DNA from: Promethearchaeota archaeon Loki_b31
GTDB lineage: Archaea; Asgardarchaeota; Lokiarchaeia; Sigyniarchaeales; SOKP01
Length of the DNA stretch: 43,477 nucleotides
Direction: 5' to 3'
Assembly (NCBI GenBank): GCA_005222975.1
Contig: NJBI01000029.1
Span: forward strand, 1 to 43,477
Both the position numbers and the translations under genes were made by a program. Below are positions 16,347 to 23,275 of the stretch, one piece after another. The notes under the pieces were generated by a model. It was not told where the DNA came from. It made no database searches and saw only the letters and a program-made list of their open reading frames with translations. Each line of letters begins with the position of its first letter. The stretch's first letter is position 1.

Positions 16347-17090
16347 TTAAATTTTTAAAAACTGAAGCCACGACGAATCATCTTTTAATTGTTCATATTT
16401 TTCTTTATCTCCAAAATCTCCTCTAAATTGATTTTTCTCCATCTTTACTACTCTTACTTTCCAGTTTCGCTCGTTCATACCTTTTAAGAGAGCCTTTGGT
16501 ATTTCTATCTCACCTCTTTCAGAAGGCTTGAGGTTTTTTAAAACTTCGAAAATTTCCTTAGAAAAAATAAACACGCCACAATTATTTAGATTCGATCCGG
16601 GCGTTCCCTTTGGTGGCTTCTCAACTATATTTTTGCAGATAATATCGTCACAAAAAACAGCAGCTCCTAAATGAGGGTCTTTAGTGTAATTTGCTACTAA
16701 AATAAAATCGTACTTTTCTTTTCGATGAGTATCATACACTTTTTTATAAACTTCATAAGGTACTAGAATATCCCCCCATGTTAGAAAAAAATTATTATTA
16801 GAAATTGAATCTTTACAGAGTAATAACGCGCCTCCTGTGCCATTTAACTCTTTTTGCTCGATATATTCAATATTTACCCCCCACTTTTTACCATTTTGAA
16901 AATAGTCTATAATTTGTTCTTTTCGATATCCTACTACTATTATAATATCTTGAAATCCAGCATAAATTAGCCCATTTAAAATATACTCTAACATGGGCTT
17001 TCCATGAAGAGGTATCATTGTTTTTTGGTATTTTTTAGTATAGGGATACAATCGTTTTCCATAACCGGCACATAACACAATCGCTTTCAG
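16347..17090 (-). CDS. Sugar-1-phosphate nucleotidyltransferase (probable CTG start)
   Basis: (M)KAIVLCAGYGKRLYPYT..K signature, EQKELNGTGGA, WGD, VEKP, SERGEIEI; CTG 17090 overlaps the upstream stop (CTGA). Confidence 0.92.
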   Translation of the reverse strand: MKAIVLCAGYGKRLYPYTKKYQKTMIPLHGKPMLEYILNGLIYAGFQDIIIVVGYRKEQIIDYFQNGKKWGVNIEYIEQKELNGTGGALLLCKDSISNNNFFLTWGDILVPYEVYKKVYDTHRKEKYDFILVANYTKDPHLGAAVFCDDIICKNIVEKPPKGTPGSNLNNCGVFIFSKEIFEVLKNLKPSERGEIEIPKALLKGMNERNWKVRVVKMEKNQFRGDFGDKEKYEQLKDDSSWLQFLKI

Positions 17091-18190
17091 TACATCTCAA
17101 CTCCTTTACTAGTTTCTATAATAAAAGCTTCCCCGCCAGCATCTTCTATAACATTCTTAAGAAGATGTACATTATTTGGCATTAAAGCAAACATCGTCCC
17201 ACCGAACCCAGAACCATTAATTTTTCCACCTAAAGCCCCAGAGCTTAAACTATTAGAGATAATTTTATTAATTTTATTAGTTGAAATCTGTATATTGTCT
17301 CTTAATTGTTCTTGATGCAAATTTAATAGAGATCCTAGTCTTCGATAAAATTTAACCATATTATTCGAGCTCTCTCCTTGTTTTAATAAAGAAAGTTGTT
17401 TATCGATTAATTCCTTTGCTTTATAAGTAATGTCTCTATTAATAATATTTCCTACAATCTTTTCCTGATGCTCTTTTTTTAAACTAGGTAAATACGGCTG
17501 TATATCTTCTAATTTTGTATAAAATTGATTGAATCCGGGCATTATATTGGAAATTTTCTCAAAAGCATCTAATGTTAGATTTTTTGTTCTAACCAAGTCA
17601 TCTACCGTCTCTTTTTTTTCCATTGAATTTCCTAAAACAAACCCTTTTAGCTTGAGGTCATAAACAATTAAATTAGGTTTTGGGAGTACAGGTTTTAAAA
17701 AGATTAAGTTTCCAAAAACCGAGCTAAAGTGATCCATCATACCCCCTCCTTCTTTAAACTCCTTTACTTCCGTATTATACCCCTCTACTGCTAACTGAAA
17801 GAGATCTAATTTTGTATCACTTATTATGTTTAAAAAATATAACCAAGCAATCACTAAAGCTGAAGAACTGGCAACACCTGCGTTAATTGGGATATCCCCG
17901 GTAATTTTAATCCTATATCCTTTTTCAAACCTGCTTCTTTTCCTGAGAAATTGATTGTAACCACTAATTAGATAATCTCGATTTGATTCGTAATCGAGCT
18001 CTTTATTATTTAGCGATATCTCTACGAATGAATTTAAATTAGGCATATTTATTAAAAATTTTGGCTCAGAAATTCTTTCTGCTTCTAAATAAATATACTT
18101 TGATATCGCCATACAGATTATAGGATAATCCAAATAATCTTGATGCTCGCCAAAGAGACATATTCTTCCGGGAGATTTAATTCGAATCAT
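17087..18190 (-). CDS. GHMP kinase, galactokinase-like
   Basis: PGRICLFGEHQDY, IPINAGVASSSA, GGMMD, GGKINGSGFGG. Confidence 0.9.
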   Translation of the reverse strand: MIRIKSPGRICLFGEHQDYLDYPIICMAISKYIYLEAERISEPKFLINMPNLNSFVEISLNNKELDYESNRDYLISGYNQFLRKRSRFEKGYRIKITGDIPINAGVASSSALVIAWLYFLNIISDTKLDLFQLAVEGYNTEVKEFKEGGGMMDHFSSVFGNLIFLKPVLPKPNLIVYDLKLKGFVLGNSMEKKETVDDLVRTKNLTLDAFEKISNIMPGFNQFYTKLEDIQPYLPSLKKEHQEKIVGNIINRDITYKAKELIDKQLSLLKQGESSNNMVKFYRRLGSLLNLHQEQLRDNIQISTNKINKIISNSLSSGALGGKINGSGFGGTMFALMPNNVHLLKNVIEDAGGEAFIIETSKGVEMY

Positions 18191-18407
18191 TTTCTTGTAT
18201 TTACTTTTATTAAGAAATTACTAACTAAATTCAATTTTTTTTTTTTTGGGTATCTTTATAATTTAAAAGATTTTAGTGTATGATATTATATTACTAGGAT
18301 ATTACTTTTTTTTTTCTTTTTTGGATATTAAATTTTATTGATGTCTTAATGATGATTTTTCTTTAAGTTATTATAGCGACCTAGATAAAAAATAACGAGT
18401 TTAATTT

Positions 18408-19157
18408 ATGATACACGATTTTTTAATAATCAAAGACGGTTTACCATTATTATTCAAGAACTTTTCCAGTAATAAAAACATTTTTTCGCAAGGTGATTCA
18501 TTATTATTGGTATCGGGATTCTTTTCAGCATTAAACTCATTTTCTGACTCGTTTGAGGATTTAGGAACGATAAGTGAATTAAAATTATCTAATAACGATT
18601 TAAAATTATCTTTTTTAAAAGATTCAAGCATCCCAAATTTACTATATATCGCTACTTATGACGAAAAATCTAAAGCCATAAATGTACTAAGAATCCTACG
18701 AAAAGTGTCTCGTACATTTTTACAAAAATTCAACATCAATGAAATATTAAATTGGAGAGGAAGAACAAATGCATTTGAGACGTTTGAATGCATATTAGAA
18801 CGCTTTAAAAAAGAAGAATTAGAAGATAGTGAATCTGGGTTCAAGGAAAGAATCGTTGAATTATTCAAAAGTGTAGAAGAAAAACTTAATGAAGAATCCA
18901 ATTTATATGCATTAAAAGGTAAATTAGAGCCTTCGCCGGACTTACCGCATTATTGCAATCAAATTCCCCGTTTCACTATTACTAAAAAAATTAATCCAAA
19001 ATATTTTTTAACTGGCGAAACTTCATGTAAAGTTTTTTATCAAATTAATGGAAAGAAATCAATTGAACAAATTGCGAAAAGTTTGGATTTAGAATATTCA
19101 CAAGTATATAATATTTCGAAAAATCTTATCAAACTTGGTTTTATTAGTTTATCTTAA
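18408..19157 (+). CDS. Longin-like domain plus C-terminal winged helix (NPRL2-like architecture)
   Basis: LIIKDGLPLL and LVSGFFSALNSF typical of Asgard longin domains; C-terminal QINGKKSIEQIA..NLIKLGFI wHTH. Confidence 0.75.
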   Translation: MIHDFLIIKDGLPLLFKNFSSNKNIFSQGDSLLLVSGFFSALNSFSDSFEDLGTISELKLSNNDLKLSFLKDSSIPNLLYIATYDEKSKAINVLRILRKVSRTFLQKFNINEILNWRGRTNAFETFECILERFKKEELEDSESGFKERIVELFKSVEEKLNEESNLYALKGKLEPSPDLPHYCNQIPRFTITKKINPKYFLTGETSCKVFYQINGKKSIEQIAKSLDLEYSQVYNISKNLIKLGFISLS

Positions 19158-20104
19158 TACTCGTATTTAAAAATTTCAAAAACCCACGCTCGCCCGCCCG
19201 CTTTTTCAATAGCTCGAGCAACTTCCTCTTGCTTTCCAGGAGCGATCGCGAGCATACAACCTCCCCCCCCAGCACCCATTTGTTTTGCTCCATAAGCACC
19301 AGCATTTTTAGCTGCTTTACATAATTTCAATATCTTTTCTGTTGCTGTCTCTAGGATAATTTCTTGTTCTTGCTGAATATCCATGTACATTCCAAACTTT
19401 TTAAAATCGCTTTTCAATAATGCTTGTTTGCCTTGATTTACACAATCCTCAATTATCTTAAAGGCATTTAATGTTAGGGAATCTCCTTCTCTGATTTGTC
19501 TTTTAATTCTATTTAATACTAAAACCGCTTTTCTTTCTTCAATCGAATCCCCTACTACGATTGGTAGATAACTAATATCTAGTTGTTCAACTCTAGGATT
19601 TTCATTAGTATGAATAAAAGTTATACCACCATGAGCTATACTATATTGATCCATTCTTCCACATTGAATGCCTAAATCGTGATTTTCTCCCAAATATGCA
19701 AGTTCAGCGATTTCGTTGTTAGAAAGGTTAAAAGAAAAAGCTTTACTCATTGTTCGTAAAAATCCTACGGATATTGCTGCCGATGTAGATAATCCTACGC
19801 CTATAGGAATATCAGATTTAACTTCTAAAACAAACCCATGGGTAATTTTTTCTTTCAACCGTTCATACAAAACACTCCAATAACCTAAATCATTATCTCT
19901 TGGAGGTGAATCACCCAAATTAAATTTAATTTTTTCTTTCGTATCATGACTATAAAGTTCAATTATGTCGTCAGACCTAGCTGTGTAATTAAGCCTCATC
20001 ATTAAGTTTATTGCCATAGCTATAACAGGTTTTCCCAATAGATCAACCTTATCGCCCATCAAGCAAATTCTTCCTGGAATTTCTAGACTTTTTATGTCTT
20101 CCAT
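19154..20104 (-). CDS. GHMP kinase (second paralog)
   Basis: PGRICLMGDKVD, IPIGVGLSTSAA, CGRMDQ, GAKQMGAGGGG. Confidence 0.88.
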   Translation of the reverse strand: MEDIKSLEIPGRICLMGDKVDLLGKPVIAMAINLMMRLNYTARSDDIIELYSHDTKEKIKFNLGDSPPRDNDLGYWSVLYERLKEKITHGFVLEVKSDIPIGVGLSTSAAISVGFLRTMSKAFSFNLSNNEIAELAYLGENHDLGIQCGRMDQYSIAHGGITFIHTNENPRVEQLDISYLPIVVGDSIEERKAVLVLNRIKRQIREGDSLTLNAFKIIEDCVNQGKQALLKSDFKKFGMYMDIQQEQEIILETATEKILKLCKAAKNAGAYGAKQMGAGGGGCMLAIAPGKQEEVARAIEKAGGRAWVFEIFKYEY

Positions 20105-20191: not shown

Positions 20192-20497
20192 TTATTTTTG
20201 AACTCTTTTCTGGTGTTGCTTTTTCCTTTTTTTTTCTTTATCTTCGATTTCTTCTTCGAGTTGTTTTAATCCAGGATCATCCTTCCCTTCAAATTTGAAT
20301 GTTCCAACAATTTTACTTTCTTGTTTTTCTCCTGATTTGCTTATTTTTTCGAATGTAATTATAACTGGTTTATTTTGGTTTAGAGCCATATTGATAAAAT
20401 TTATGAAACCAGAATGTTTACTTGGAGCTATATTGAATTTAATGGATATTTCTTTGTCTTTTTTAGTTGTAGTCTTCAGTATAAGTCGTAATTTCAA
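20192..20497 (-). CDS. Small basic hypothetical protein
   Basis: 101-aa ORF, TTG start with GTGA upstream, Lys-rich C-terminus; fills an intergenic gap. Confidence 0.7.
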   Translation of the reverse strand: MKLRLILKTTTKKDKEISIKFNIAPSKHSGFINFINMALNQNKPVIITFEKISKSGEKQESKIVGTFKFEGKDDPGLKQLEEEIEDKEKKRKKQHQKRVQK

Positions 20498-20630
20498 TTA
20501 TTGTCACGTAATTTTTTTTATAGTATAATTGTATAATTGTTTTAAATTCTTTAAGATTATTAGATTAAAAAAATTATAAATATTAAAATTAAGTATTATA
20601 TATAAATAAAAAGAATTTCAAGAGGTCATA

Positions 20631-21416
20631 ATGTCTACTAATCTTTTTCCTTACAAATATCTAAAGGGGCAGTGGTATCAAGCAGACGAAATTAATGACA
20701 GCGATGTTGTTGTTATTGTAGATACTTCACAAGAAACGATTTGGTTTCAGGGGGGGAATAAAAGTACGGCTAGAAATCGTAGTGATGCTCGAGCATTATT
20801 AGGCGATTTAATGGAGAAATATACGTCTTACGAATTTAAAAGAGTATCGAATGAAACCCCAGACGAGATTTTAGTAAAATTGGAAGATTTAAAAGAACTA
20901 TATTATGTTAGAAGTGTTGCAAGTTTAAATTATGATTTGAGAAAAGCATCTAGTATTTATTTCTATTTAAATAGCATTGGTTGTCTACTATTAATCATTT
21001 CTATATCTTTCTTAGGATTATTAATATTTGGTTCTGGAACATCATTTATCGATTCACATCTTCACTATTCAATACTTTTTGAGAATTTCATATTTCAAAT
21101 TTCTTTTATTTCTACGTTATTGATAGTTTCTTTTTCATTATTTGTAACCAGTACCATAATGGGAATTTTTTTAAAGAAAAAACAGTTATTCACCAAAACG
21201 CTAATATCTGGAATTATAATATTTATTACTTTCTTTATAATAAAAATATGGGATATATCGCTGTATTACGAAATTATTGGACAGTTTATATATTTTAGGA
21301 TTGATGCATTAATTTGGTTTGCGTTTTGTATTGAAATCCTTCAGGCACTCGCGATGATAATAGGTTTCTATACGGGAATAATTAGTTTTAAAAAAATATA
21401 TGAGAAGAATGATTAA
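20631..21416 (+). CDS. Membrane protein with N-terminal gelsolin-like domain and four TM helices
   Basis: INDSDVVVIVDTSQETIWFQGGNKST..A..ETPDEI resembles a gelsolin repeat; four hydrophobic helices follow. SD GAGGT. Confidence 0.6.
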   Translation: MSTNLFPYKYLKGQWYQADEINDSDVVVIVDTSQETIWFQGGNKSTARNRSDARALLGDLMEKYTSYEFKRVSNETPDEILVKLEDLKELYYVRSVASLNYDLRKASSIYFYLNSIGCLLLIISISFLGLLIFGSGTSFIDSHLHYSILFENFIFQISFISTLLIVSFSLFVTSTIMGIFLKKKQLFTKTLISGIIIFITFFIIKIWDISLYYEIIGQFIYFRIDALIWFAFCIEILQALAMIIGFYTGIISFKKIYEKND

Positions 21417-21434
21417 AATTAGCGAAAAAATAAA

Positions 21435-22073
21435 GTGGATCTAAGAGTTATGGCTTCAAAATTTCGTCTTCGTAGAATATTTCGACCCTTTATTAATTTA
21501 TTAGCGAAGGGATTAGGCAAAATTGGCGTGAATCCTAATTTAGCAACGATCATAATGCTTTGTTTTTCTATTTTTAGTTTTTTTACTCTTGTTTTTTTTT
21601 TTAATTTATTTTTTTTCTCTATATTTGTATTTTTAGTGGGTATTTTTGATGGCGTTGATGGGGCAATCGCTAGGATAAAGAATAGAGCAACAACTTTTGG
21701 AGGCTTCTTTGACTCAGTTATGGATAGAACGAGCGAATTTGTAATTTTTTTTGCTCTTTTGTTTTATTGCTGGAATTCTATATTATGGGGATTTTTTGAT
21801 ATGAAAATAATAATTTTTATTTCTTTTTTAAGTTCGATAATGATAAGTTATTTGAGAGCGAGAGCTGAGACCTTTTACAAAGGAGATTTTGATTATGGGT
21901 TAATGGCTAGATCAGAGCGGCTATTTTATTTGTTTATTACTATGTTAATCGCGAATTTTTATGGATTCGTTAACGAATTTTTATTTCTTTTTATGATTTT
22001 AGTAATAGCTACGGCTTACTTTAGATATTTTAAAATTAAGAAGCTTATAAGAAATTTCGAAAAAGGAAATTAA
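21435..22073 (+). CDS. CDP-alcohol phosphatidyltransferase (archaetidylinositol-phosphate synthase-like)
   Basis: PN motif, DGVDGAIAR..GGFFDSVMDR signature, SYLRARAE, GLMARSER. Start may be ATG 21450. Confidence 0.92.
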   Translation: MDLRVMASKFRLRRIFRPFINLLAKGLGKIGVNPNLATIIMLCFSIFSFFTLVFFFNLFFFSIFVFLVGIFDGVDGAIARIKNRATTFGGFFDSVMDRTSEFVIFFALLFYCWNSILWGFFDMKIIIFISFLSSIMISYLRARAETFYKGDFDYGLMARSERLFYLFITMLIANFYGFVNEFLFLFMILVIATAYFRYFKIKKLIRNFEKGN

Positions 22074-22116: not shown

Positions 22117-22821
22117 CTATCTATTTTTAAGTAATTCAATTATTAACTTATCTCCATCTTTCAAATTATAATAATCTCTTAAATAAGGCTTCGCTAAGAT
22201 CTCTATTATGTTTTTTTCGTGATGAGTTCTTTTAATATCTAATATAGCAGCTTTTCGGCGATTATTTTTATCATCCATTCGGGAGATGTACACATCATAG
22301 CATTTAACAGCCCCGTATTCTCTACTTTGATCTTTAAACCCCTCAATTATAACTGGTGATATATTTTGTAGTTTTTCACGTAAAATTGTGTTTGTAGCAT
22401 CAGTTAATAATAAATTTAACGTACCTATATAAGGTTCGAAGCCTAATTTTTTTTTAAATTGATCATAATAACCTCTAATGGCAACATAATATCCACCTTC
22501 GTGTATACCCTCTACTACTTCGCCAACGATCAAAATTGACTCAAGGAGAGATTTCAAATTTTTATAAACTGTAAGCATAACATTAGTTCCTTCTTTAGTT
22601 ATTGATATCGTTTGTGTTTTACCATCAGTTTTTCTTTTGATCCAATTTAATTCAATTAACGCGTTAATTCTCCGACTCCCTGATTGTTGACTTAATCCTA
22701 ATATTTCACCAAATTTAATAGTGCTTATAGTAATATTACGCTTATTCTTTGTTAATCGACAAAGTTGATAAAGAGCAAACCAATTAACATAATTTTCCTG
22801 TGAGATTTCTTCTTCAGCCAA
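22117..22821 (-). CDS. ribK: CTP-dependent riboflavin kinase with N-terminal wHTH (RibK/RbkR-type)
   Basis: LGLSQQSGSRRI HTH; GEVVEGIHEGGYYV, LGFEPYIGTLN, RTHH..IIEILA..YLR. Confidence 0.9.
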   Translation of the reverse strand: MAEEEISQENYVNWFALYQLCRLTKNKRNITISTIKFGEILGLSQQSGSRRINALIELNWIKRKTDGKTQTISITKEGTNVMLTVYKNLKSLLESILIVGEVVEGIHEGGYYVAIRGYYDQFKKKLGFEPYIGTLNLLLTDATNTILREKLQNISPVIIEGFKDQSREYGAVKCYDVYISRMDDKNNRRKAAILDIKRTHHEKNIIEILAKPYLRDYYNLKDGDKLIIELLKNR

Positions 22822-22837
22822 TAGTCCACCAATAAGT

Positions 22838-23275
22838 TTATTTTTTTAATTGTTCTACAATTTTCTTTTTAATAAGACTAGAAGAGTGTAGTTTATATTT
22901 ATCATAATAAGTATCTAACCTTTTAACTGTTATGTGGGTCAGCCCTTTTTTTATTAATTCTCGTTTTAGTACTTCTATATCGTATTTTTGATCTGGTCCC
23001 AAGAGAATTATGTCTGGATTTATTTCTTCAACAGTTTTAAGCGTATCGTTATCAGATCTTCCTAATCTAGCTTCTTTTACATTTTTTATATTTTTTATTA
23101 CTTCTAATCTCTGATCTTCAGGTACTATTATTTGATAATTTTTAAATTTCTCTGCGTTTTTATCTGTAGATACTATGACATAGACATCACCCATTTTAGC
23201 AGCTTCTTGGATTAAGTATAAATGTCCTGGATGGAGCAGATCAAAAGTTCCAGCAATAAGTACTTTTTTAACGAT
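22838..23275 (-). CDS. ribL: FAD synthase / FMN adenylyltransferase (cytidylyltransferase family)
   Basis: Frame upstream of the track ATG (23194) encodes KKVLIAGTFDLLHPGHLYLIQEA with the HxGH motif; PDIILLGPDQ, SSSLIK. Start is ATC 23275, or ATG 23285 with a one-base error in an A8 run. Confidence 0.85.
   Translation of the reverse strand: MVKKVLIAGTFDLLHPGHLYLIQEAAKMGDVYVIVSTDKNAEKFKNYQIIVPEDQRLEVIKNIKNVKEARLGRSDNDTLKTVEEINPDIILLGPDQKYDIEVLKRELIKKGLTHITVKRLDTYYDKYKLHSSSLIKKKIVEQLKK

What the first reader, a model, noticed from the sequence alone, without database searches (positions are those of the whole stretch)
20631..22073. Membrane-anchored gelsolin-like protein in an apparent operon with a phospholipid head-group synthase
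Seen: the first about 85 aa (EINDSDVVVIVDTSQETIWFQGGNKSTARNRSDARALL..KRVSNETPDEIL) follow the gelsolin-repeat pattern L-x-x-x-D-hhh-D...h-W-x-G..S...A...E-P/T, followed by four TM helices. The next gene, 18 bp away on the same strand, is a CDP-alcohol phosphotransferase of the archaetidylinositol-phosphate synthase type. Established: Asgard gelsolin-like proteins regulate actin, eukaryotic gelsolins are controlled by phosphoinositides, and the characterised gelsolins I know of are soluble. Inference: a possible integral membrane tether or regulator for Lokiactin, co-expressed with inositol-lipid synthesis.
Basis: partly seen in the sequence, partly recalled or inferred. Interest (0 to 1): 0.72.

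Follow-up and report, generated by a model that had tools for sequence, protein, structure and literature searches.

The report
Membrane-anchored gelsolin beside inositol-lipid synthase
An Asgard (Lokiarchaeia-type) archaeon encodes a protein whose cytoplasmic head is a gelsolin-type actin-regulator domain joined to a four-helix membrane anchor and very probably co-transcribed with the cell's inositol-lipid synthase; whether it binds the archaeal actin is untested, but if it does it would be a direct actin-to-membrane link that I did not find described.

Summary
ORF 20631-21416 (261 aa) has an N-terminal domain of about 77 aa that is a true gelsolin-homology domain. The family profile hits villin (E 7.8e-12) and Thorarchaeota ProGel (E 3.9e-8). 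The AlphaFold2 model's best structural matches are ProGel (Foldseek TM 0.73; Z 10.4), then Asgard 2DGel, gelsolin, adseverin and villin.

One continuous helix joins this domain to a four-helix membrane bundle. Charge distribution across 45 relatives places the gelsolin domain in the cytoplasm.

The next gene has an intact CDP-alcohol phosphotransferase motif and is closest to archaetidylinositol-phosphate and phosphatidylinositol-phosphate synthases. It is the only such gene in the genome.

This paralogue ("type A") occurs in 25 of 154 genomes of the order. In all 25 it lies directly upstream of that synthase; the gaps measured across 27 co-directional loci are 8-37 bp. A small unknown protein on the other side completes a three-gene set seen in other arrangements in sister families. 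Many relatives keep only the synthase and the small gene. A second paralogue ("type B"), never next to the synthase, is far more widespread.

The best reading is a membrane-anchored Lokiactin tether or regulator. The link to inositol lipid is plausible but unproven.

The parts
20631..21416 (+). Gene for the membrane-anchored gelsolin-homology protein (261 aa; 'type A' Gel-4TM)
   Evidence: ORF; homologues; model
20631..20861 (+). Gelsolin-homology domain, aa 1-77 (four strands, long helix 47-63, strand 68-71)
   Evidence: Family profile against PDB sequences: villin 7.8e-12, ProGel 7c2f_B 3.9e-8. Type-A-only profile: ProGel 0.0025. Foldseek 7c2f_B TM 0.73. VIA-align Z 10.4, rmsd 2.4, 82 of 88 residues. 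ESM Atlas gelsolin clusters. Most conserved part of the protein.
20862..20951 (+). Stalk, aa 78-107: the helix that closes the gelsolin fold runs on unbroken into TM1 (model helix 78-133)
   Evidence: AlphaFold2 secondary structure
20952..21401 (+). Four-helix transmembrane bundle, aa 108-257, with two short outward-facing beta-hairpins (136-149, 213-223) and a basic cytoplasmic loop (KKK at 182-184) and tail
   Evidence: Hydropathy and K+R counts in 45 relatives: loops 1 and 3 carry 0.6 each, loop 2 carries 1.9, the C-tail 9.8. Model. Only generic helical-bundle matches.
21417..21449 (+). 33-bp spacer to the conserved ATG of the synthase gene; I see no run of T that would suggest a terminator
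   Evidence: Sequence read. Orthologous spacers are 8-37 bp in 27 co-directional loci.
21450..22073 (+). CDP-alcohol phosphotransferase of the (archaetidyl/phosphatidyl)inositol-phosphate synthase type; the ORF as listed begins at GTG 21435
   Evidence: PF01066 at 46.6 bits. NF040950 at 136.5 bits, below the 180 cut-off. PDB PIP synthases 6h53 at 2e-21 and 5d91/5d92. Motif D72-x2-D75-G-x2-A-R80-x8-G89-x3-D93-x3-D97 read. Only strong copy in the genome.
20192..20497 (-). Small conserved protein (101 aa; two strands, a helix, two strands, then a basic C-terminal helix), transcribed divergently; third member of the conserved gene set
   Evidence: Homologues beside the synthase in families f1, f3 and f4. 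Found in 14 of 14 sampled genomes of the order and 0 of 87 outside it. Model pLDDT 88.5. No fold match.
20498..20630 (.). AT-rich divergent intergenic region with TATA-like runs and an AGAGGT ribosome-binding-like site 5 nt before ATG 20631
   Evidence: Sequence read; promoter function is inferred, not tested

Best explanation
The gene encodes an integral membrane protein found, in the 400 Asgard genomes searched, only in one Lokiarchaeia-type order. It has a single ProGel-like gelsolin-homology domain on the cytoplasmic side. That domain is held on a helical stalk of about 30 residues that continues into the first helix of a four-helix transmembrane bundle. The most likely role is to bind Lokiactin (monomer, filament side or filament end) at the inner face of the membrane, and so tether or locally regulate the actin cytoskeleton there. 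It is very probably co-transcribed with the genome's only inositol-phosphate-type lipid head-group synthase. Shown here: homology and predicted fold of the head, the TM architecture, the charge-based topology, and the conserved tight gene pair. Inferred: actin binding, co-transcription, and any functional tie to inositol lipid.
For: Gelsolin homology: the type-A profile hits Thor ProGel 7c2f_B at E 0.0025. The 49-sequence family profile hits villin at 7.8e-12 with all six repeats aligned, ProGel at 3.9e-8, Loki 2DGel at 0.0019 and gelsolin at 0.006. The Foldseek list is led by ProGel (TM 0.73 by target, 86 columns) and continues with 2DGel, gelsolin G4-G6, adseverin, villin and CapG at probability 1.0. 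VIA-align gives Z 10.4, rmsd 2.4, 82 of 88 residues. ESM Atlas returns archaeal and eukaryotic gelsolin/villin clusters. Every Asgard gelsolin tested so far (ProGel, 1DGelX, 2DGel) acts on actin (PMC7444086, PMC9433394). Topology: there is no N-terminal hydrophobic signal, and K+R is enriched in loop 2 and the tail but not in loops 1 and 3 across 45 members. The gelsolin head is the most constrained part: 48% mean pairwise identity against 34% for the TM part, and 8 of 11 invariant columns lie in it. That fits a conserved partner such as Lokiactin, which is 97-99% identical within the family. A Lokiactin gene is present in the same genome. Pairing: the synthase is directly downstream on the same strand in 25 of 30 best loci. 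These are the same 25 genomes that carry type A. Spacers are 8-37 bp.
Against: The gelsolin fold also occurs in proteins not shown to bind actin; Sec23a is noted as such in PMC7444086. The canonical Trp of the D-W-G motif is replaced here (Q40), with a Trp two residues earlier, so the core is slightly atypical. Pfam's Gelsolin model does not reach its threshold on this protein. Only two of the five AlphaFold2 models were confident (pLDDT 82, 80, 61, 56, 45), and that alignment had only 8 sequences. Type A is absent from 129 of 154 genomes of the order, so its role is not essential.
Confidence: 0.5

Rival explanations
1. The gelsolin-fold head no longer deals with actin. Together with the small basic-tailed protein, it is an accessory or regulatory partner of the inositol-phosphate lipid synthase, for example a cytoplasmic lipid-head-group-binding or scaffolding module acting in the membrane next to the enzyme.
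For: A gelsolin-domain gene, the small gene and the synthase stay together in four different gene orders across three families of the order. Spacers to the synthase are very tight. The canonical Trp is displaced and a conserved basic stretch (K44, R48, R50) sits at the start of the long helix. Eukaryotic gelsolin binds phosphoinositides (general knowledge). Sec23a has the fold without known actin binding (PMC7444086).
Against: Six relatives that were checked keep the small gene and the synthase side by side with no gelsolin gene between them, and 129 of 154 genomes lack type A. The enzyme therefore does not need it. The tree shows the synthase-adjacent genes are mostly one lineage, so shared ancestry alone can explain much of the adjacency. 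No direct evidence of contact between the two membrane proteins.
Confidence: 0.25
2. It is a transmembrane coupler: the two conserved outward-facing hairpins bind something outside the cell (surface layer, partner cell or substrate) and the gelsolin head connects that site to actin inside. This would be an adhesion or sensing link rather than a passive anchor.
For: The model has two extracellular beta-hairpins. Loop 3 is the best-conserved part of the membrane region, with W207, D208, G217, R223 and D225 invariant in the 8-sequence alignment and D225 invariant in 26 sequences. Cultured relatives crawl and form actin-filled protrusions (bioRxiv 10.1101/2025.11.30.690169).
Against: The hairpins are very short (about 14 and 11 residues). 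No known extracellular domain or fold match was found. The resemblance to claudin/TARP four-helix proteins was not significant (E about 0.3; Foldseek probability 0.3-0.5).
Confidence: 0.1
3. The likeness to gelsolin is a chance resemblance of a small alpha/beta domain, and the protein is an unrelated membrane protein.
For: Pfam and NCBIfam give no hit for this protein. Identity to ProGel is only about 17%.
Against: Independent lines agree: profile E-values of 1e-8 to 1e-12 to solved gelsolins; structural searches in which gelsolins fill the Foldseek list and ProGel is the only N-domain match shown by VIA-align; Atlas clusters that carry PF00626; and sub-threshold PF00626 hits in relatives and in the paralogue.
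Confidence: 0.03

Closest known systems
Thorarchaeota ProGel (PDB 7C2F chains B/D; Akil et al. 2020, PMC7444086)
   Same: A single prototypical gelsolin/cofilin domain of about 90 aa. It is the best sequence-profile and structural match. Soluble ProGel-like genes of 92 and 146 aa occupy the equivalent locus beside the synthase in two complete genomes of a sister family.
   Different: ProGel is a free soluble protein. Here the helix that closes the fold continues into a 4-TM bundle. The canonical Trp is shifted by two residues. ProGel's actin binding is shown by a crystal structure; this protein's is not.
Asgard 1DGelX (one gelsolin domain plus unknown domain X)
   Same: One N-terminal gelsolin domain followed by a non-gelsolin C-terminal part. 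The papers count two '1DGelX' in the MK-D1 genome and three in the GC14_75 MAG, both Lokiarchaeota (PMC9433394). I could not check whether these include Gel-4TM proteins.
   Different: Domain X of the characterised Thor protein is described as a predicted coiled coil or disordered region, and the protein is soluble. Here the C-terminal part is four hydrophobic membrane helices.
Eukaryotic gelsolin, villin, adseverin and CapG
   Same: Homologous repeat: all six villin repeats align to the family profile. Eukaryotic members are regulated by phosphoinositides (general knowledge), which makes the neighbouring inositol-lipid synthase notable.
   Different: They have three to six repeats and are soluble or peripheral. 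As far as I know, no integral-membrane member is described. Ca2+ sites were not examined here.
Gelsolin-like domain of Sec23/Sec24
   Same: The same fold used as a module in a membrane-traffic protein without known actin binding. This is the precedent for the non-actin rival.
   Different: It is part of a large soluble coat protein. No sequence-level match to it was seen here.
Archaetidylinositol-phosphate synthase and bacterial PIP synthase (NF040950; PgsA1 6H53; Renibacterium PIPS 5D91/5D92)
   Same: The downstream gene has the full CDP-alcohol phosphotransferase motif and scores best against these. The genome also has a myo-inositol-1-phosphate synthase.
   Different: It falls below NCBIfam's equivalog cut-off (136.5 against 180 bits), so substrate specificity is inferred, not established.

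Membership tests
Gelsolin/cofilin-homology domain (gelsolin superfamily) | Statistically supported sequence homology to known gelsolin repeats | tested here: met
   Family profile against PDB sequences: villin 7.8e-12, ProGel 3.9e-8, Loki 2DGel 0.0019. The type-A-only profile hits ProGel at 0.0025.
Gelsolin/cofilin-homology domain (gelsolin superfamily) | Pfam PF00626 match above the gathering threshold | tested here: not met
   No hit for this protein. 4 of 49 relatives hit at E 1e-3 or weaker. The paralogue scores 16-18 bits against a cut-off of 21. This is a curated cut-off, not a defining property of the fold.
Gelsolin/cofilin-homology domain (gelsolin superfamily) | Gelsolin fold: mixed sheet packed against one long helix, closed by a second helix | tested here: met
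   Predicted model only (pLDDT 74-86 over aa 1-90). Foldseek TM 0.73 to 7c2f_B. Z 10.4, rmsd 2.4. Atlas gelsolin clusters.
Gelsolin/cofilin-homology domain (gelsolin superfamily) | D-W-G core motif (Asp hydrogen-bonded to Trp, then Gly) | tested here: inconclusive
   D31 and G42 are present. The canonical Trp position is Q40, and W38 is invariant two residues earlier. Type B and distant members have the canonical I-Y-x-W-x-G.
Gelsolin/cofilin-homology domain (gelsolin superfamily) | Binds actin | not testable with these tools
No biochemical data.
Gelsolin/cofilin-homology domain (gelsolin superfamily) | Ca2+-binding sites (type 1 or type 2) | not tested
CDP-alcohol phosphotransferase (PF01066) | Signature D-x2-D-G-x2-A-R-x8-G-x3-D-x3-D and a Pfam match above cut-off | tested here: met
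   D72, D75, G76, A79, R80, G89, D93 and D97 read. PF01066 scores 46.6 bits against a cut-off of 22.
Archaetidylinositol phosphate synthase (NF040950 equivalog) | Score above the equivalog cut-off | tested here: not met
   136.5 bits against 180. It is still the best-scoring family, ahead of PIP synthase (90.7) and DIPP synthase (65.5). The nearest solved structures are PIP synthases.
Claudin/TARP-like four-helix membrane proteins | Significant sequence or structure match of the TM part | tested here: inconclusive
   TARP gamma-2 at E about 0.3. Foldseek probability 0.3-0.5 with rmsd about 29. VIA-align shows only generic helical bundles.

The most novel reading that the evidence does not exclude
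A primitive phosphoinositide-actin module. An integral-membrane gelsolin tethers or caps Lokiactin at the membrane, and its activity or placement is set by the inositol phospholipid made by the co-transcribed synthase, with the small basic-tailed protein as a third component. That would place lipid-controlled actin-membrane coupling, a hallmark of eukaryotic cell cortex biology, in Asgard archaea in a form (a transmembrane gelsolin) that eukaryotes are not known to use.
Probability: 0.15. Interest if true: 0.85.

Novelty: new variant of a known kind. Interest (0 to 1): 0.6.

Why it matters
How Asgard archaea connect their actin filaments to the membrane is unknown. Cultured relatives form and move actin-filled protrusions. 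The actin partners found so far (profilins and soluble gelsolins) came from soluble-protein assays and from a co-immunoprecipitation that its authors say under-samples membrane proteins. A family of transmembrane gelsolin-domain proteins gives a concrete, testable candidate for that missing link. The family was found in most of the 154 searched genomes of this order. The widespread type B is also present in complete genomes of the sister family, which may include cultured strains. Its position next to the inositol-lipid synthase also allows a direct test of whether lipid control of actin regulators predates eukaryotes.

Tried and rejected
The job was counted and there is no result. I did not try another route.
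Co-transcription therefore rests on spacing alone.
- Pfam and NCBIfam give nothing for the 261-aa protein.
- The TM part matches only generic or designed four-helix bundles (Z up to 16.8, within the range the tool warns about for helical bundles). I rejected a claudin/TARP relationship as unsupported.
- The small neighbour protein has no Pfam hit, no usable Atlas hit, no Foldseek match at E 0.001 or better, and VIA-align Z of 4.3 or less. Its fold remains unassigned.
- The supplement of PMC7444086, which lists Lokiarchaeal 1DGelX sequences, is not held. I could not check whether some published '1DGelX' entries are Gel-4TM proteins.
- I first read the conserved adjacency as strong evidence of functional coupling. 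I lowered this after finding that six checked relatives have the small gene and the synthase side by side without the gelsolin gene, and that adjacency largely follows one gene lineage.

Full report
**What is there.** The window has two co-directional ORFs at 20631-21416 (261 aa) and 21435-22073 (212 aa from GTG). Neither Pfam nor NCBIfam recognises the first. The second matches PF01066 (CDP-alcohol phosphatidyltransferase) at 46.6 bits. Its best NCBIfam model is archaetidylinositol phosphate synthase at 136.5 bits, below the 180-bit equivalog cut-off, followed by PIP synthase at 90.7 and DIPP synthase at 65.5. The catalytic signature D72-x2-D75-G-x2-A-R80-x8-G89-x3-D93-x3-D97 is intact (read). 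The nearest solved structures are mycobacterial and Renibacterium PIP synthases (2e-21 to 5e-18). In orthologues Met6 is invariant and the consensus starts there. The true start is therefore probably ATG 21450, and the spacer is 33 bp.

**The N-terminal domain is a gelsolin-homology domain.**
- A profile of eight close and mid-distance homologues (A1) already finds Thorarchaeota ProGel (7c2f_B) as its best PDB sequence hit (E 0.0025, residues 16-76), and villin next.
- An exhaustive profile search of 1.8 billion representatives found 55 relatives at E 1e-3 or better. Most are 250-390 aa and match end to end. A few are 92-107 aa and match the N-domain only. These have the canonical I-Y-x-W-x-G gelsolin core.
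- The 49-sequence family profile (A2) hits villin at 7.8e-12 with all six repeats aligned, ProGel at 3.9e-8, Lokiarchaeota 2DGel at 0.0019 and gelsolin at 0.006.
- PF00626 itself reaches only sub-threshold scores on a few members.
- The AlphaFold2 model has mean pLDDT 82, but only two of five models were confident and the alignment had 8 sequences. It gives four strands, a long helix 47-63 and strand 68-71.
- Foldseek against the PDB is led by ProGel (E 7.5e-4, TM 0.73 by target, 86 columns). Asgard 2DGels, gelsolin G4-G6, adseverin, villin and CapG follow at probability 1.0.
- VIA-align gives ProGel Z 10.4, rmsd 2.4, 82 of 88 residues. The ESM Atlas shape search returns archaeal and eukaryotic gelsolin/villin clusters.
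- In the window's own clade the canonical Trp is Q40, and an invariant Trp sits at position 38.

**Membrane part and topology.** The helix that closes the gelsolin fold (from residue 78) runs unbroken into TM1, to residue 133. Then come a beta-hairpin (136-149), TM2 (150-181), TM3 (184-206), a second hairpin (213-223) and TM4 (224-257). Hydropathy agrees. Across 45 full-length relatives, loops 1 and 3 carry 0.6 Lys+Arg each, against 1.9 in the short loop 2 and 9.8 in the C-tail. The N-terminus has no hydrophobic signal. By the positive-inside rule, the gelsolin head and the tail are cytoplasmic. The bundle matches only generic helical bundles. Hints of TARP/claudin likeness were not significant.

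**Distribution and paralogy.** The organism is an Asgard archaeon. Homologues carry Promethearchaeota and Thorarchaeota labels, and the genome encodes a Lokiactin.
- With the broad profile, strong full-length matches were found only in the window's order, in families f1-f4. Elsewhere among the 400 genomes of the phylum that were searched there were only weak hits of about 1e-6 to 5e-10, probably to the N-domain alone.
- There are two old paralogue lineages (tree).
- The window's "type A" is in only 25 of 154 genomes of the order: own genus 15 of 41 plus the window's genome, g2 5 of 5, g3 1 of 1, g5 2 of 6, g10 1 of 1, g12 0 of 54.
- "Type B" has the canonical gelsolin core and is far more widespread.
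- The window's genome has a type B copy at C75:111152-111904, followed by a RIO2-type kinase.

**Gene neighbourhood.**
- In 25 of the 30 best loci the synthase lies directly downstream on the same strand. These are the same 25 type-A genomes. Spacers are 8-37 bp in 27 co-directional loci.
- On the other side, divergently transcribed, is a 101-aa protein (20192-20497). Its family was found in 14 of 14 sampled genomes of the order and 0 of 87 outside it.
- The three genes recur in other orders:
  - Family f3, genus g20: a roughly 233-250-aa gelsolin-TM gene (minus strand), then the small gene (plus), then the synthase (plus).
  - Family f3, genera g18 and g19, including two complete genomes: the same layout, but the gelsolin gene is a soluble ProGel-like protein of 92-146 aa.
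  - Family f4, one genome: the synthase (plus) faces the small gene (minus) and a Gel-4TM gene (minus).
  - Family f4, another genome: a Gel-4TM gene (minus), then two small genes (plus), facing the synthase (minus).
- The f1 and f3 layouts differ by one inversion of the gelsolin/small pair.
- Six f1 genomes that I checked (genera g1 and g12) have the small gene and the synthase back to back, with no gelsolin gene between them.
- Type B is never near the synthase.
- The synthase is the only strong copy in each of five genomes examined. The window's genome also has a myo-inositol-1-phosphate synthase.
- Taken together, the association of a gelsolin-domain gene with the small-gene/synthase pair is ancient and survived rearrangements. 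It is dispensable, and part of it may be plain inherited synteny.

**Function.** The head is the most constrained part of type A: 48% mean pairwise identity against 34% for the TM part, and 8 of 11 invariant columns lie in it. This fits a conserved partner. Lokiactin is 97-99% identical within the family. All Asgard gelsolins assayed so far regulate actin (PMC7444086, PMC9433394). The published architectures are ProGel, 1DGelX (X coiled-coil or disordered) and 2DGel. None of the papers I could read mentions a transmembrane form. The L. ossiferum co-immunoprecipitation study notes a bias against membrane proteins. I therefore favour a membrane-anchored Lokiactin tether or regulator (confidence about 0.5). 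The main rival is a non-actin role with the synthase and the small protein (about 0.25). A transmembrane coupler through the conserved outer hairpins is a minor variant.

**Verdict.** This is a new domain architecture of a known family, of real interest for Asgard cell biology, but the key property, actin binding, is still untested.

Noticed in passing
window 20192-20497 (-): Small protein family (about 75-aa core with the motif K-F-x-I-x-P-S-K-H-x-G-F-I-N-F, often with a Lys/Arg-rich C-terminal helix). Found only in this order in the sample searched (14 of 14 against 0 of 87). It is almost always next to the inositol-phosphate-type synthase and is tandemly duplicated in several genomes (for example L017, L020-L022, L024, L027, L029, L054). 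The confident model (pLDDT 88.5) has no fold match.
   Followed up: partly
G000:C75:111152-111904 (locus L037 5995-6780, +): Second gelsolin-4TM paralogue ('type B', 261 aa, canonical I-Y-L-W-N-G core) in the same genome. It is followed by a RIO2-type kinase and preceded by 2-oxoacid:ferredoxin oxidoreductase-like genes. This paralogue is the widespread one in the order.
   Followed up: partly
L050 4388-4666 (-) and L051 4142-4582 (-): In two complete genomes of a sister family, the gelsolin gene beside the small-gene/synthase pair is a soluble ProGel-like protein (92 and 146 aa) with no membrane part. Membrane anchoring at this locus was therefore gained or lost during evolution.
   Followed up: partly
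window 18408-19157 (+): A 249-aa protein with a longin/roadblock-like N-terminus and a weak C-terminal winged-helix hit (TrmB, E 0.0015). It is part of the conserved block upstream of the small gene in distant orthologous contigs. A 292-295-aa protein with a similar N-terminus flanks the ProGel-like gene in L050 and L051.
   Followed up: no
window 16347-20104 (-): An NTP-transferase (sugar-1-phosphate nucleotidylyltransferase-like) and two GHMP kinases, one mevalonate-kinase-like and one galactokinase-like, all below equivalog cut-offs. The NTP-transferase and the 367-aa galactokinase-like kinase also lie upstream in orthologous contigs. They could feed head-group or isoprenoid lipid synthesis.
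   Followed up: no
window 22117-23194 (-): A winged-helix plus CTP-dependent riboflavin kinase and a small cytidylyltransferase-like protein, convergent with the synthase gene and conserved in synteny.
   Followed up: no
G000:C46:51492-52052 (-): A 191-aa open frame 84% identical to the C-terminal half of Lokiactin: either a partial second actin copy or a fragment. I did not check its position on the contig.
   Followed up: no
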